DNA of 64,000 nt from Amoebophrya sp. A120 (taxonomy: Eukaryota; Protista; Dinoflagellata), in contig CAJINV010000003.1 of the NCBI GenBank assembly GCA_905178155.1, positions 517,091 through 581,090 on the forward strand. Direction: 5' to 3'. Of this stretch, positions 105 through 54,116 are shown one piece after another; positions within the stretch are counted from its first letter, which is position 1, and each line of letters starts with the position of its first letter. The notes under the pieces were generated by a model. That model saw only the letters and a list, made by a program, of their open reading frames with translations. It ran no database searches and was not told where the DNA came from. A program made the position numbers and the translations under genes.

Positions 105-3100
105 AGTGTGACCGGCTCCAAGCCCTTGTGGACGAGGAGCGGTCCCGGCACCAGGAGAGCGAGCAGACCCTCCTGGAAACGCAGCGCAAAACCCTGCACG
201 AGCACAACCTGGGCCTCGCGAAGCTGTCCGAAATGATGCCCATCGCGAGTCACCAGCAGATCTTGGAGGAAACGCGGCGCCACCACCACGCTGGGATGCT
301 GGAACTGGAGCAGAACCTGCGCGGGCAGTATATGGCGTTCTCAAACGTTACATTTTCAACTGTTACGTGATTTGTCATGCAGAATGACCATGACCCGCCA
401 GACGATCGAGCTGCTGGGCATGACAAATTCTTGGAGGGCTAAGCAGCACGAAACTCTGCACGAAACCTGTAATGCAAGACGCGCAAGGTTCTCCCTCTCA
501 CCGGTGCTAGTCTTGCATTACAAATTCATGTAACAGTTGAGAATGTAACAGTTGAGAACGCCATACAGTACCAGAAGCAGCTCTCCGAGCAGAGCGAGCA
601 GGAGGAGAGAAAGCAGAAGGAGTTCCAAGACACCCTCCTGCACGTCCGCACCGGGCTATGAGAGTGCACAACTAGAACTACACCCCGTCCCCCTCAATTG
701 TCAATTGCATGGCACGAGCAGCAAGACAAACACCAATTTTACACGTGGAGCCTGTGCATGACAAGTTGTTCAAGGGCCGAATTTAGTACGGTTTGGGCTT
801 CCGAAATTTGTCATGCAAACGGTTTTGCCACAAGGCACCAAATCAATTGATGGGGACTTTGCATTACAAATGAGGGAGAGGGGGAGCAGTTGTGCACTGT
901 CATACGGCCTGAAGAAGCTCGAAGCGCAGCGGGACGACGCCTCGCGGAAGGCCAAGACCAGCGACGAAGAAAGCGTGAGCTTGCGGCAGCAGCTCCGCCG
1001 GGTCACCACGGAGGCCAAGGACCTGGAGGAGAGCAAGAAGCTGTTTGCGCAGAACCTGGAGGAGGCGAACAGCAATCTGGTCCGGCTCCGGCAGATGTGG
1101 GAGGAGGAGAAGTCGAACCGGTTGAGCGCGGAGAAAACGAACACGGAGTTGAAGCGCAAGCTCGCCGTGAAGGACGAATTTTTGAAGAAGGAGCGGGGCG
1201 TCTTGATGGAGGACCTGGAGCGGACCATCGGGAGCAAACTGCGGTGGGCCGAGGACGAAACGGAGCGCCTGCTGTCCAAAACGCAGTCCGCGGACCAGGA
1301 GACGGACCGTCTCCGCGCGGCGCTGGCCGCGAAGGACGCGAAGATCATCCAGATGCTGGACGACCGGTCGGATTTGGAGCGCAAGTTCGCGCGCGACCAG
1401 GCGGTGGGAAGGAAGGCAGTGGAGCTGCTTGTGAACTGCCAGCAAACCACGAAGTTGTTCTGCGACGCGGCGAGGAGAGAACTGGCCTTTCTGAAGAAGT
1501 CCGTACAGGAGGAGGTGCAGACGGTCTTCCATGACGTCCTGTCCACACGGTGCGCGTCGCTGCAGCAGATGCTGAAGCAGCAGGACCGGCAGTCGGAGAA
1601 AACGCGACTCAGCCTGAAACGGGAGATCGCAGACCAGTCTGAGAAAACGCTGTCGCAAAAGCAGCAGTACCAGGACATTCTGGCGCAGCAGCGCGCTGTC
1701 AACAAGCAGTTCGAGTTCGTCACAAAAGAACGAGACGAATTCAAGCGGAAACTGGACGCTGCAAAGGACAAACACCAAGAGCAGGAATTGTTGCTGGAAA
1801 GGATACTCAGGTACAACGTGTGTTTTGTTTCATCAAATCGGGCCACGGTCTTTGTATCTCGAACGCCGCGCCACCACGTCACACGATCAGTATGATATGA
1901 AATGCAAGGTAAGTAAAGACGAGCTGAAGATGAATCTTTCTTCAAAATCATGGAAGCTCCACATCGACATAGTACAATATTACAAGTCTAACAAGACGCA
2001 ACCAATGAGAACAATTCGAACAACTACCATCCACAGCGCTGTTGTCGCTCCCCTTCCAGCGCTCGACCAGAACAAGGAGGCGTTGCTGCTGGCCTCGACG
2101 AGCGGCACGAGCAAGACGGAAGTTTCGGAGCAGATCAAGTCGTTTCGCGCGAAAATCGCGGCCACGATTGACGACATCCGCAAGGGAGCGTTGCAGGACC
2201 ACGAGAAAACGACGAATTTTAAACTGAAGGCCATGGAGGAAAAGCTGGCGCACGAGCTCGGATTCCAGAAAGAAAGCGAGATGAAAGCGAAGACGGACCA
2301 CGAGAGGCAGCTCGCGGAATACGCACTGCAAATGGCCGAAATGCGGGGGACCGTCGCGACCCTCGAAGACCGTCACCGGGAAATCGTCGCGAAAAACAAC
2401 TCACTCGAAGCGGAGCTAAAGGAGGCCGAGACGGATCTCAAGTACTTACTTACCTAGGCTTCATGGAGGCTTTGTATCTTGTTAGGCCTCTGCACTGCAA
2501 AACTCAACTCGAGATGATGATGACGTCCTGCAGGGGCAACGTTGTCTCCAGCGCTCCTAGTTGATACGTACTTACTGAAAGATGATCGAGTAACGTTTTC
2601 TAACCAGCTATTCATCACATACATATTCCCTGTACATGTAAAATGCTCTATCGCTACTAGGTTCTACGCCTCGCGTTGCGAGGAGCAGAGCGAAGAGCTG
2701 GAGAGAAGGAGGGAGCGCGAGGACGAGACCACCCGGGAAACGGAGCTGCTGGTGGATATGAGAGTGCACAACTCCCCCTCCCCCTCATTTGTGATGCAAA
2801 ATGTCTAATTTACACCTTGCCTCTGGGCACTGTTAGCATGACAAGTTCTGGCAGCCCAAATAGCACTACACTCCTGTCCAAATTTGTCATGCAAAACCTG
2901 TGCTCTAGGTGACGCTTGTATTGCCGTTCATGCAACACAAATGAGGGCGAGGGGGAGTTGTGCACTCTCATAGTGGAGCTTGCCAAGACGGAAGCGGTGC
3001 AGCCGGTGAAGGAGCAGATGTATCGCAAGGAAAAATCCCCCCTCCCCATATTGAAGAGGTAGGTTTTCGAAAATTTGTGTTGCTGATTTGAGGTCACAAA

Positions 3101-4128
3101 TCGCGTTTGTGTTGCAAGAAGACAAGGGCAGCAGCTTCCGTCCCATTCTGGAGGCGGTTTGTCATGCTGTTGCGCCAACATCACGGACGCTTCTCATGCT
3201 AAGCGCCTAAGTCAAAGCATCTCTGCTCAGGCTTGATATGGGTCTGCAGTCCTCTCTAGCAGGACAGATGTGATTTGTGTACTCAAATACAGCAACACAA
3301 ATTCCGCTTTCGATATGGGGAGGGGGGATTTTTCCTCACAATAAGATGCGGGAGGTGTTCCAGGAGGCGGAACGCCTGCAGAACCGGTTTGCGAAAGACC
3401 TGCACGACCGGGACCAGCAGTGGGAGAGCATGGTCGAACAGATCCGGCAGGATTCCAACCAGCTGCTCGGGCAGCGGGAGAAGGAGTACCAGGCGGCAAA
3501 CGCCAAACTCGAGCGGGAACTCGAGCGCGGTCGGGAGCGCGAACAGGAGCTGGTGGCCGAGGTTGCGAAGGCGAAGCACGAAGTGACCCTGCGGCAAAGC
3601 TCCATGATGAGCGAGATCGATCGCGCGGCGACCGCGCAGAAGCGTGCGGAGCACGAGTGCGAACAGGTGCGGCGAGAGATGAAAAACGTGCAAGAGGCCA
3701 GCTCGCGACAGCACCGCACCATGCAAGAAGCGCTCGATCTCAAAACACGGCTTGCAGAGGAGGTATTGATAAAGTTTTCCTTTGTAGTTTCTGATTCTGT
3801 GGCTCTTTCTCTTCTCGACGGCCAGTAAAGGTAGATGCTTTGTTCATCGGTCAGCTTGTGAAGAAACTGCACTCAGATCCAACGCGAGAACCGGCAGCTG
3901 GTTGCGGATCGGGATGAGGAAATCCGCAAGATAACTGAGCTCAAAGAGGACGAGCTGGAAAGGCTGCAGTCGACGATCAAGAACCAATACGCGCAGCCAC
4001 GCACGGTCTCCCAGGTGGTGACGCAGCAGGAACAGCTCGAAAAAGAGGCCGAGTCGCTTAGTATGCGGGTCAAACAACATCTTGCGTCCCCAGACCACGA
4101 CGATGGACCAGCCGGCGGGAGGGGCTGA
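105..4128 (+). CDS. Long coiled-coil protein, multi-exon, 5' end outside the window
   Basis: E/K/Q/R-rich heptad-like exons join in frame: 105-330, 571-656, 910-1810, 2037-2441, 2661-2756, 2978-3020, 3349-3762, 3877-4128. GT-AG introns at 1811-2036, 2442-2660 and 3763-3876, plus four TIR/DR elements. Confidence 0.8.
331..565. mobile_element. Introner-like TIR element 1 (non-canonical intron)
   Basis: TATGGCGTTCTCAA...TTGAGAACGCCATA, ~44-bp imperfect TIR. DR CAGTA at 326-330 and 566-570. Removing 240 nt restores RGQYQKQL. Confidence 0.9.
657..904. mobile_element. Introner-like TIR element 2 (family B)
   Basis: TATGAGAGTGCACAACT...AGTTGTGCACTGTCATA. DR CGGGC/CGGCC. Removal restores RTGLKKLEAQ. 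Confidence 0.88.
2757..2972. mobile_element. Introner-like TIR element 3 (family B, opposite orientation to element 2)
   Basis: ~40-bp TIR TATGAGAGTGCACAACTCCCCCTC. DR GTGGA. Removal restores ELLVELAKTE. Confidence 0.92.
3021..3343. mobile_element. Introner-like TIR element 4 (family C)
   Basis: TIR TATcgcaAGGAAAAATCCCCCCTCCCCATAT. DR AGATG. Removal restores KEQMREVFQ. Confidence 0.92.
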
Positions 4129-53013: not shown

Positions 53014-54116
53014 ATGACAAGTACTTCTCACAGCGACCCAAGAACAATGATAGATTCCGCGGCCTCCTCCTCCAGCACCACCGACCGGTGGATGCGAGTG
53101 GCGTGCGAGCAGGCGCGGTTGGGAAAGCAGTCCGGCGAGGTTCCCGTCGGGTGTGTTTTCGTGCACGAGGAGGAGCCGGAGAAGCCGCTGGCCAAGGCCT
53201 TCAACCACACCAATCGCGACCACAACGGAACGCGGCACTGCGAGCTGGTCTGCATGGACGCCATGATTGCGGACTTGCCGGAGGTATCAAATGTAAAAAT
53301 GTCTGGGTCTGGAAGAAAGCATGTTTGGCATGCTTGTCTGGCATAACTCTGAAATCTGTCATGCACGTTACCCAAGAGCTCCGCTTTTCTGTGATGCAGA
53401 AACGCAGTTTGTCATGCAGAATAGGCAACACCTAGAAGCTCAGAAACTTGTCATGCTGAGCCAGCATTTGTGGCCTCATCATGAGACGCCACCCAGCATC
53501 ACAGGTTTCCAGACCCAGACGTTTTCACATTTGATAGGAAGAAACCTCGTTCCGGGATGTGATGCAGAAAACCACCCTGTACGTAACCGTGGAGCCTTGC
53601 ATTATGTGCGCGGGCGCATTGGTGCTCGCGGGCGTCAAGAAAGTGGTCTTCGGCTGCTTCAATCCCCGGTTTGGCGGCTGCGGTGGCGTCGTCACCGTCG
53701 AGCCACCTCCGACAGGAGATTCAGCAACGAGGATGGAGGAGGGTGAGCGAACAGCTGCTGGTGCTGGCTTTGCTGACACGAGCACGACGAGGGCAAGTGG
53801 CACCACATTAAATCCTGCGGTCGTGGTGGTGCAGGAAGCCGAAGCTGCTGGTGCTCAAGCTCAGGAGACGTTGACGATGCCCGTAGTTTCCAGTTCCACA
53901 AGAAGTACTACTCACGGCGACAAGGATCATAGCACGAACACCGGACCCCCATGTCCCCGCGTAGATCGAACCCTCCAGCGTCTTGAAGCTGTGCAAGCGA
54001 AACAATTTGAAGAGGAAGCGATCGAACTCCTGCGATCCTTCTACGAACGCGGGAACCCAAATGCACCCGAAGCGAAACGACAAAGAAAAATTGTGGAGGA
54101 TGTAGCTGATGCTTAA
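53014..54116 (+). CDS. ADAT2: tRNA-specific adenosine-34 deaminase catalytic subunit
   Basis: [38 protein letters not shown] and [10 protein letters not shown]. Split by element 14; start may be 53047. Confidence 0.92.
53285..53536. mobile_element. Introner-like TIR element 14 (family A)
   Basis: 252 bp, same length as and closely similar to 14850-15101. DR GGAGG/GGAAG. Confidence 0.95.

What the first reader, a model, noticed from the sequence alone, without database searches (positions are those of the whole stretch)
326..53541. Fourteen TA...ATA hairpin elements with 5-bp direct repeats act as non-canonical introns in conserved genes
Seen: 14 elements of 149-384 bp, in about eight TIR types, sit inside coding exons. 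All start TA (13 TAT), end ATA and carry a 5-bp DR. Deleting the element plus one DR restores conserved peptides (PDX1 KGGVIMDV and AEAAGACAV, SEH1 EQVSDVKF, NEK VVKQME). No exact-removal register gives GT-AG; in elements 1, 3 and 5 the nearest GT..AG pair is one base too long. Known: non-canonical IR/DR introners are described in Amoebophrya, with the excision mechanism unresolved as far as I know. Inference: a precise, structure-guided removal system works alongside normal GT-AG splicing in the same genes. TAT termini with a 5-bp TSD do not match a DNA-transposon superfamily I can name.
Basis: partly seen in the sequence, partly recalled or inferred. Interest (0 to 1): 0.85.

Follow-up and report, generated by a model that had tools for sequence, protein, structure and literature searches.

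The report
Transposon introns spliced without GT-AG
Fourteen small hairpin-ended transposons sit in this marine protist's coding sequence and are missing exactly from its transcript assemblies although they lack normal intron signals; they match the published Amoebophrya 'introner' class, and new clues suggest they are likely cut out by a loosened spliceosome that reads one U at the start and measures to the end.

Summary
Real, and already described as a class. All 14 elements are present (149-384 bp, TA...TA ends; 12 perfect 5-bp repeats, 2 with one mismatch). They match the Amoebophrya A120 introner elements of Farhat 2021; Gozashti 2025 already lists an A120 family with a 5-bp TSD and TA/TA termini. 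Transcript-like contigs remove element plus one repeat exactly for 8 of the 11 elements laid (3 not visible, tables cut), while a DNA-like run keeps them. New here: (1) the mismatched repeat of element 2 places the 5' cut at the hairpin end and the 3' cut 4-6 nt past it; (2) same-family copies are removed in either orientation; (3) among 348 relatives from a metagenome assembly, the first T is never mutated at the transcript's 5' end (0 versus 9 at the 3' end); (4) targets show no AG or GT bias; (5) the families share a TTGTVATGC motif. Best reading: non-autonomous integrase-type transposons removed by a relaxed spliceosome using an N-U-A donor and a distance-set acceptor (about 50%); rival: a protein nuclease plus ligase (30%). 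No transposase found. The scan noted similar introns on other DNA before.

The parts
331..565 (+). E1 element, TSD CAGTA, in a coiled-coil gene; RNA joint 325->566 (240 nt = element + 5)
   Evidence: removed in 4 of 4 runs
657..904 (+). E2 element, TSD CGGGC/CGGCC (synonymous mismatch at position 4); RNA joint 655->909 keeps the left copy's position 4, which fixes the cut register to -1/0/+1
   Evidence: 4 of 4 runs, ambiguity 2
2757..2972 (+). E3 element, TSD GTGGA, same family as E2 in the opposite orientation; RNA joint 2751->2973
3021..3343 (+). E4 element, TSD AGATG, same family as E10 in the opposite orientation; RNA joint 3015->3344
14850..15101 (+).
15182..15491 (+).
25206..25366 (+). 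E7 element, TSD TGAAC, in a displaced copy of the 3' end of a lipase-like gene; removal not seen (tables cut)
26757..26905 (+). E8 element, TSD GCGTG, in PDX1/SNZ; RNA joint 26751->26906
26963..27239 (+). E9 element, TSD CGGTG, in PDX1/SNZ; RNA joint 26957->27240
39440..39823 (+). E10 element, TSD GAACA, in a Na/Ca exchanger gene; RNA contig skips 39435-39823
   Evidence: table 8 record 13
41100..41352 (+). E11 element, TSD CGAAG, same gene; RNA contig skips 41095-41352 and ignores the GT..AG pair one base longer
42989..43159 (+). E12 element (starts TAA), TSD CCGCG, in a NEK-like kinase; intact in DNA-like contig; RNA row not shown
43235..43414 (+). E13 element, TSD ATGGA, same kinase; intact in DNA-like contig; RNA row not shown
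53285..53536 (+).
1811..2036 (+). Canonical GTAC..CAG intron in the transcript that also loses E1-E4 (likewise 2442-2660 and 3763-3876)
27489..27752 (+). Canonical GTAC..CAG intron in PDX1, removed in the same run as E8 and E9

Best explanation
These are non-coding TA-ended transposon-like inserts with 5-bp target repeats that are missing exactly from transcript assemblies, and they are likely spread by an integrase-type (Ginger/GingerRoot-like) transposase and likely removed by the cell's own, loosened spliceosome. Shown: elements, repeats, many copies in both orientations, exact absence from RNA-like contigs, presence in DNA-like contigs. Inferred: the last base of the left repeat plus the element's TA forms a donor N-U-A that imitates positions +2/+3 of this organism's normal GUA donor; the long stem brings the ends together; the acceptor is set by distance, four bases past the element's end, whatever its sequence. 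Because the 5-bp duplication is split 4+1, the exon is restored for any target and either orientation. The shared TTGTVATGC motif is most likely the transposase binding site.
For: Exact removal for 8 of 11 laid elements, in contigs or runs that also remove 5 GT-AG introns. E2 keeps the left repeat's position 4, so the 5' cut is at -1, 0 or +1 and the 3' cut 4-6 nt beyond the element (4 of 4 runs, 2 samples, 1 study); +1 gives an exact product in only a few of the 14 (E2, E7, E10). In 242 oriented relatives the first T is kept 242 of 242 at the 5' end and changed in 5 at the 3' end; the union with a wider search is 0 versus 9 (p=0.004; 7 have robust orientation, p=0.016), 4 of the 9 cannot form a wobble pair, and the 5' T at position 3 is changed 6 times. 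All 5 RNA-confirmed canonical introns start GTA. Published top boundaries are NT-xx in A120 and TT-xx in A25. Nearly all spliceosomal proteins are reported in both strains, with U1 snRNA undetected. A precedent for a U2 spliceosome handling 95% non-GT/AG introns exists in tunicates. E1, E3 and E11 ignore a GT..AG pair one base longer. Transposon side: exact repeat length 5 in 258 of 458 raw candidates versus 3 for length 4 and 8 for length 3; families in both orientations, e.g. 39/33, 22/16, 13/19; palindromic target skew; motif in 14 of 14 elements, 37 hits in 3.4 kb versus 6 in 60.6 kb and in 249 of 258 relatives.
Against: No lariat, branch point or spliceosome binding was tested. Spliceosomes rely on a G-G or A-C pair between first and last intron base, yet under register -1 these bases are free: first base G 70, A 51, T 38, C 36 of 195, and GG occurs 18 times against about 22 expected. 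The register rests on one element; -1 and 0 are not separated. The T asymmetry is 9 events, picked from 3 positions, in a different assembly and oriented by a codon model that miscalled 1 of 14 window elements. Neither terminal A at the 3' end is invariant, so no fixed branch A was found. Published NT-xx boundaries may reflect aligner choice (the paper calls the border unknown). Structurally similar euglenid introns leave as circles, which points away from the spliceosome. No transposase was found. All RNA evidence is cDNA contigs from one study, and 'RNA' is the tool's guess.
Confidence: 0.5

Rival explanations
1. Same transposons, but removed by a non-spliceosomal protein endonuclease and RNA ligase (tRNA-splicing-like or RNase III-like) that binds the stem, reads the 5' U and cuts both strands of the junction with a fixed stagger.
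For: No sequence preference at either junction base; orientation-blind removal; strong hairpins, z below -4 for 12 of 14; U1 snRNA undetected; euglenid look-alikes form circles and such routes are proposed for diplonemids.
Against: E4, E8 and E10 have frayed outer ends yet are cut exactly; the one invariant base sits where a GUA donor has its U; a cut right after the 3' TA, where an integrase-like enzyme would cleave (from knowledge), is excluded by E2. No candidate enzyme is identified.
Confidence: 0.3
2. The joints are reverse-transcriptase template switches across a hairpin flanked by direct repeats, and real mRNAs are processed otherwise or not at all.
For: Hairpin plus direct repeat is the known substrate for this artefact; all RNA evidence is cDNA; contigs drop minor forms.
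Against: Kept elements put 2-7 stops in conserved genes; removal of element + 5 gives the best coding frame in 229 of 285 relatives; repeat mismatches fall at codon position 3 in 22 of 37 against 13.2 expected, so the junctions are under protein selection; in E2 the joint lies in the 2-nt rather than the 3-nt shared stretch; the 5' T asymmetry needs selection in vivo.
Confidence: 0.05
3. Elements are excised from DNA (ciliate IES-like) in the expressing stage.
For: Removal of element plus one repeat is what precise DNA excision would give; only one DNA-like run was laid.
Against: Run X1 (flat depth 42-66 in unique bins) has no contig at the E8 or E9 joints and one gap-free contig across E12 and E13; the contigs lacking elements also lack GT-AG introns, so they are spliced RNA; a transcription-strand asymmetry is not expected of DNA excision. 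X1 may be the sample the window was built from.
Confidence: 0.04
4. A second, dedicated snRNA-based machine (divergent U1/U6 variant or new guide RNA) handles these introns beside the ordinary spliceosome.
For: U1 undetected although canonical introns are still spliced; fixed TAT-N7-AAA spacing at both ends.
Against: No such RNA was searched for or seen; no genome was available; the two ends are otherwise equally conserved at positions 2-3 and 5-16.
Confidence: 0.11

Closest known systems
Introner elements (IEs) among the non-canonical introns of Amoebophrya sp. A120 (Farhat et al. 2021, PMC7789003; read: abstract, sections 10, 11, 12, 16, passages, supplement legends and Table S4/S7 rows; figures not seen)
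   Same: TAT start followed by seven variable bases and three or more A, inverted and direct repeats, about 240 nt, many families, mixed with GT-AG introns in one gene, RNA-supported; Fig. S19 shows a 5-bp direct repeat.
   Different: The paper gives repeats of 3-5 nt and leaves the border position unknown; here the repeat is a fixed 5-bp duplication outside TA...TA ends, the register is narrowed, and a 5' U constraint and a shared internal motif appear. Identity of the window's strain with A120 was not tested.
A120 introner family 38 (Gozashti et al. 2025, PMC12130899; read: passages and 41 of 58 A120 rows of supplementary file 8)
   Same: TIR element annotated '5-bp TSD, TA/TA termini', labelled Ginger in the dataset.
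   Different: About 810 bp with ORFs resembling Copia/Gypsy sequence; the window's elements are 149-384 bp with no such ORF. The paper's text says it lacks Ginger termini and TSDs.
GingerRoot and Ginger2/TDD integrase-type DNA transposons (PMC6839031, PMC2836005; read: passages)
   Same: GingerRoot has TA...TA ends (72 of 77) and no fixed target base; TDD-4/5 make 5-bp TSDs.
   Different: GingerRoot TSD is 6 bp; Ginger ends are TGTNR; all encode a transposase, not found here; none is described there as an intron.
Nonconventional introns of euglenids and diplonemids (PMC12501133 abstract and outline; PMC12621601 abstract and passages; PMC11282704 section 6)
   Same: No GT-AG, paired ends, TSD-like repeats, a few more unpaired bases on the 3' side, coexistence with canonical introns.
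   Different: They need a CAG/CTG pairing and a purine at the next exon start and leave as circles; here there is no exon-base preference and the constant base is a 5' U.
Non-canonical introns of Fritillaria borealis (PMC13326754; read: abstract, section 30, passages)
   Same: Transposon-derived introns removed without GT/AG; a modified U2 spliceosome is implicated.
   Different: Fritillaria keeps preferred ends (AG-AC, AG-AT) and U1; here both junction bases are free and U1 is reported missing.

Membership tests
Amoebophrya A120 introner elements | Terminal inverted repeat starting TAT, seven variable bases, then three or more A | tested here: met
   13 of 14 start TAT; positions 11-13 are A in about 90% of 242 relatives; E1, E2, E3 and E6 have a weaker A run
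Amoebophrya A120 introner elements | Direct repeat of 3-5 nt at the borders | tested here: met
   5 nt in 14 of 14, 12 perfect
Amoebophrya A120 introner elements | Absent from transcripts without GT-AG borders | tested here: met
   8 of 11 laid elements removed exactly; 3 not visible in cut tables
Amoebophrya A120 introner elements | Repeated families | tested here: met
   8 types in the window; 12 of 14 have relatives at 72-96% among 348 metagenome elements
Amoebophrya A120 introner elements | Host is Amoebophrya A120 | not testable with these tools
   No genome held; runs are coded as organism A; inferred from the motif match only
Ginger1/Ginger2 DNA transposons | TGTNR termini | tested here: not met
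   Ends are TAT; definition
Ginger1/Ginger2 DNA transposons | 4-bp TSD (5-bp in TDD-4/5) | tested here: inconclusive
   5 bp fits TDD only
GingerRoot | TA...TA termini | tested here: met
GingerRoot | 6-bp TSD | tested here: not met
   exact length 5 in 258 of 458 candidates, none of length 6
Integrase-type DNA transposons (Ginger, TDD, GingerRoot) | Autonomous copy encoding an integrase-like DDE transposase | tested here: inconclusive
   None in 12 long candidates or in 40 of 282 long ORFs scanned; only about 0.5 Mb of loci was available
Spliceosomal (U2) introns | GT/GC..AG borders | tested here: not met
   0 of 14 in the window; 12 of 195 relatives have any exact GT..AG register
Spliceosomal (U2) introns | Lariat with 2'-5' branch; dependence on U2/U6 | not testable with these tools
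   only contigs of this organism were available; raw reads X12 did not match
Euglenid nonconventional introns | CAG/CTG pairing near the ends and purine at the next exon start | tested here: not met
   ends are TAT/ATA and no target-base bias; definition
Ciliate IES-like DNA elimination | Precise excision from DNA | tested here: not met
   one DNA-like run keeps the elements and shows no joint at E8/E9; other life stages not tested

The most novel reading that the evidence does not exclude
This lineage splices tens of thousands of transposon insertions with a minimal code: one invariant U at intron position +2 supplied by the TA terminus, no G, no AG, an acceptor measured four bases beyond the hairpin, and a 4+1 split of the 5-bp target duplication that makes any insertion in any orientation silent. 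It would be a spliceosome that has given up both terminal bases, and the same N-U-A rule would explain strain A25's TT-starting introns.
Probability: 0.35. Interest if true: 0.8.

Novelty: already known. Interest (0 to 1): 0.45.

Why it matters
The class is published, but how these introns are removed is an open question, and even the cut position was left unknown. Mismatched target repeats act as natural markers of the cut site, and strand-specific conservation points to the one base that matters. Both can be read genome-wide from existing data and lead to direct tests (lariats versus circles, U mutants). If the spliceosome does it, it tolerates free first and last intron bases, which current structural models do not expect. 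It would also explain how a transposon can invade coding exons in either orientation at little cost.

Tried and rejected
Whole genome not held. Raw-read run X12: 2 of 3.3 million reads laid, so no read-level test; estuary run X9 gave only element ends and short exon pieces, nothing bridging. TIR pattern in viral contigs: 0 matches. Autonomous copy: 12 long TA..TA candidates were nested elements, chance pairs or non-coding; 40 of 282 long ORFs scanned against Pfam gave no transposase. Register from homologues: 23 exon pieces beside 17 non-synonymous repeat mismatches (pieces under 20 aa left out) had no conserved domain at the junction. Register from mutation direction or codon preference in mismatched repeats: no consistent signal. 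Co-opted GT or AG in the target: no enrichment over coding expectation. Fixed branch A in the terminal ATA: both A's are mutated in some copies. Phase bias (52/70/120 of 242): a symmetric target profile reproduces the order (0.28/0.34/0.38) but not the size (0.21/0.29/0.50), so it is not used as evidence. A mild excess of TATC over TATG at the 5' end (50 versus 30, p=0.03) did not recur as orientation bias in any of 13 families. No empty-site orthologue between window and loci. 106 of 348 relatives could not be oriented and were dropped from strand tests.
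Full report
Observation. Twelve repeats are perfect; E2 and E14 each have one synonymous mismatch at position 4. Thirty doublet shuffles give 0-1 perfect-repeat hits each against 12 in the window. The elements fall into 8 types. No exact-removal register reads GT..AG, and in E1, E3, E5, E11 and E14 a GT..AG pair is one base too long. 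Each element adds 2-7 in-frame stops if kept. Host exons belong to PDX1/SNZ, a Na/Ca exchanger, a protein kinase, a deaminase, a weak WD40 protein and a coiled-coil protein without a Pfam hit. E7 is the exception: it follows the last of four 33-41 bp copies of a lipase-like gene's 3' end.

RNA and DNA. One search gave 14 coded runs. On 25100-44800, run X3 skips E8 (154 nt) and E9 (282 nt), one contig skips E10 and E11 (389 and 258 nt), and two GT-AG introns are skipped too; each element skip equals element plus 5. Run X1 has flat depth of 42-66 in unique bins, no contig at the E8 and E9 joints, and a gap-free contig over E12 and E13, so it behaves as DNA that keeps the elements; it may be the source of the window. 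E7, E12 and E13 have no visible RNA row because 342 joints and 19,013 pieces were cut from the tables. On 1-4300, all 4 runs laid (2 samples, 1 study) skip E1-E4 exactly; two GT-AG introns are skipped in all 4 and a third in 3 of 4, with no inserted or deleted letters. 'RNA' is the tool's guess for X3-X6, backed by the removal of canonical introns. The only raw-read run laid did not match (2 reads).

Register. With perfect repeats the cut can lie at any of six places. E2's mismatch resolves this: the joint is 655 to 909 with two ambiguous letters, so the transcript keeps the left copy's position 4. The 5' cut is therefore one base before, at, or one base inside the TA end, and the 3' cut 4-6 bases past the element. 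The third option is exact for only a few of the 14. A cut at the element's 3' end is excluded. This is one element.

Orientation and structure. E2/E3 and E4/E10 are same-family pairs in opposite orientation, and all four are removed. Folding at 20 C gives strong hairpins (z below -4 for 12 of 14), but the outermost 7 or more pairs are predicted mostly open in E4, E8 and E10, which are removed exactly. All 14 carry TTGT(C/G/A)ATGC in either orientation: 37 hits in 3.4 kb against 6 in the other 60.6 kb, those 6 in one cluster at 23130-23527. A motif used in both orientations suits a DNA-binding transposase better than a splicing factor (inference).

Relatives. The commonest TIR was absent from viral contigs but gave 156 loci in metagenome contigs, the 78 listed all from one assembly prefix. 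They hold 348 distinct elements: 289 with perfect repeats, 45 with one mismatch, 14 with two. Exact repeat length is 5 in 258 of 458 raw candidates, 4 in 3, 3 in 8. Removing element plus 5 gives the best coding frame in 229 of 285, against 24 and 32 for plus 4 and plus 6. A codon model, right for 13 of 14 window elements, oriented 242 of 348. Families lie in both orientations about equally. Target bases match coding expectation at all five positions, and only 12 of 195 have any exact GT..AG register. Mismatches between the repeats favour codon position 3, 22 of 37 against 13.2. The one clear strand asymmetry is the first T: unchanged at 242 of 242 5' ends, changed at 5 3' ends; with a wider search 0 against 9, seven with robust orientation, four not rescuable by wobble pairing, while the 5' T at position 3 changes 6 times.

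Mechanism. All five RNA-confirmed canonical introns begin GTA. Under register -1 every element intron begins N-T-A, with the invariant T at +2. I therefore favour a relaxed spliceosome with an N-U-A donor and an acceptor set by distance from the stem (0.5). Against it: no G-G or A-C pairing of first and last base, which spliceosomes are said to need, no fixed branch A, and circles in euglenid look-alikes. A protein nuclease plus ligase remains open (0.3), a dedicated snRNA machine less so (0.11); template switching and DNA excision are unlikely. Spread is most likely by an integrase-type transposase, from TA...TA ends, a 5-bp duplication and a palindromic target skew; I found none.

What is known. 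Farhat 2021 describes 29,850 such introns in A120, starting TAT with a following A run, with 3-5 nt repeats, U1 snRNA undetected and the border position unknown; its supplement shows a 5-bp repeat example and NT-xx top boundaries. Gozashti 2025 annotates A120 family 38 as '5-bp TSD, TA/TA termini'. GingerRoot has TA...TA ends with 6-bp TSDs, TDD-4/5 have 5-bp TSDs, and AtRE1 has TA...TA ends. Four searches found no paper giving the register, the 5' U constraint or the internal motif; figures of Farhat 2021 (Fig. 3, S19-S25), 17 of 58 A120 rows of the Gozashti table, and Roy 2023 (only its preprint listing seen) were not read and could bear on this. Earlier notes of this scan report similar introns in other genomes; they were not used as evidence.

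Verdict. A real and striking feature of a known class. The added value is a narrowed cut site and a one-base, strand-specific signal that make the open mechanism testable. Interest 0.45.

Noticed in passing
window 22042-25483: The 3' end of a lipase-like gene occurs four times as 33-41 bp copies (22042-22092, 23772-23805, 24111-24149, 25165-25205) separated by large inserts; E7 follows the last copy, and the likely original gene end is at 25367-25483.
   Followed up: partly
window 23130-23527: The only six TTGTVATGC motifs outside the elements cluster here in a GC-rich insert with several hairpins; possibly a larger relative of the elements.
   Followed up: no
window 24101-24826 (-): 242-aa ORF with an Asn/Lys/Gly-rich stretch and a C-x2-H...H-x4-C knuckle, gag-like by recall; no Pfam hit.
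   Followed up: partly
window 36361-38571 (+): 736-aa ORF inside the Na/Ca exchanger's first intron with an FADD motif and a zinc finger, resembling a 5'-truncated non-LTR retrotransposon by recall; no Pfam or PDB hit; variant copies seen in X1.
   Followed up: partly
window 7776-10541: GC-rich satellite of 97-109 bp units, about 27 copies.
   Followed up: no
window 1-64000: Every recognisable host gene lies on the + strand, as in the unidirectional clusters reported for Amoebophrya.
   Followed up: no
window 29828-33363: One RNA-like contig of X3 spans the gene at 30185-30913 and about 2 kb beyond, with a GT-AG intron at 31086-31177 downstream of the stop codon.
   Followed up: no
L021 505-1608: A 1.1 kb element with TAT/ATA ends and a perfect 5-bp repeat carries a GC-rich non-coding interior.
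   Followed up: partly
L011 4001-5255: An element interrupted by a 1 kb insert flanked by a duplication of about 20 bp.
   Followed up: partly
L001-L156, oriented elements: Insertion phase is biased (52/70/120 of 242); under register -1 this means half are phase-0 introns; only partly explained by target preference.
   Followed up: partly
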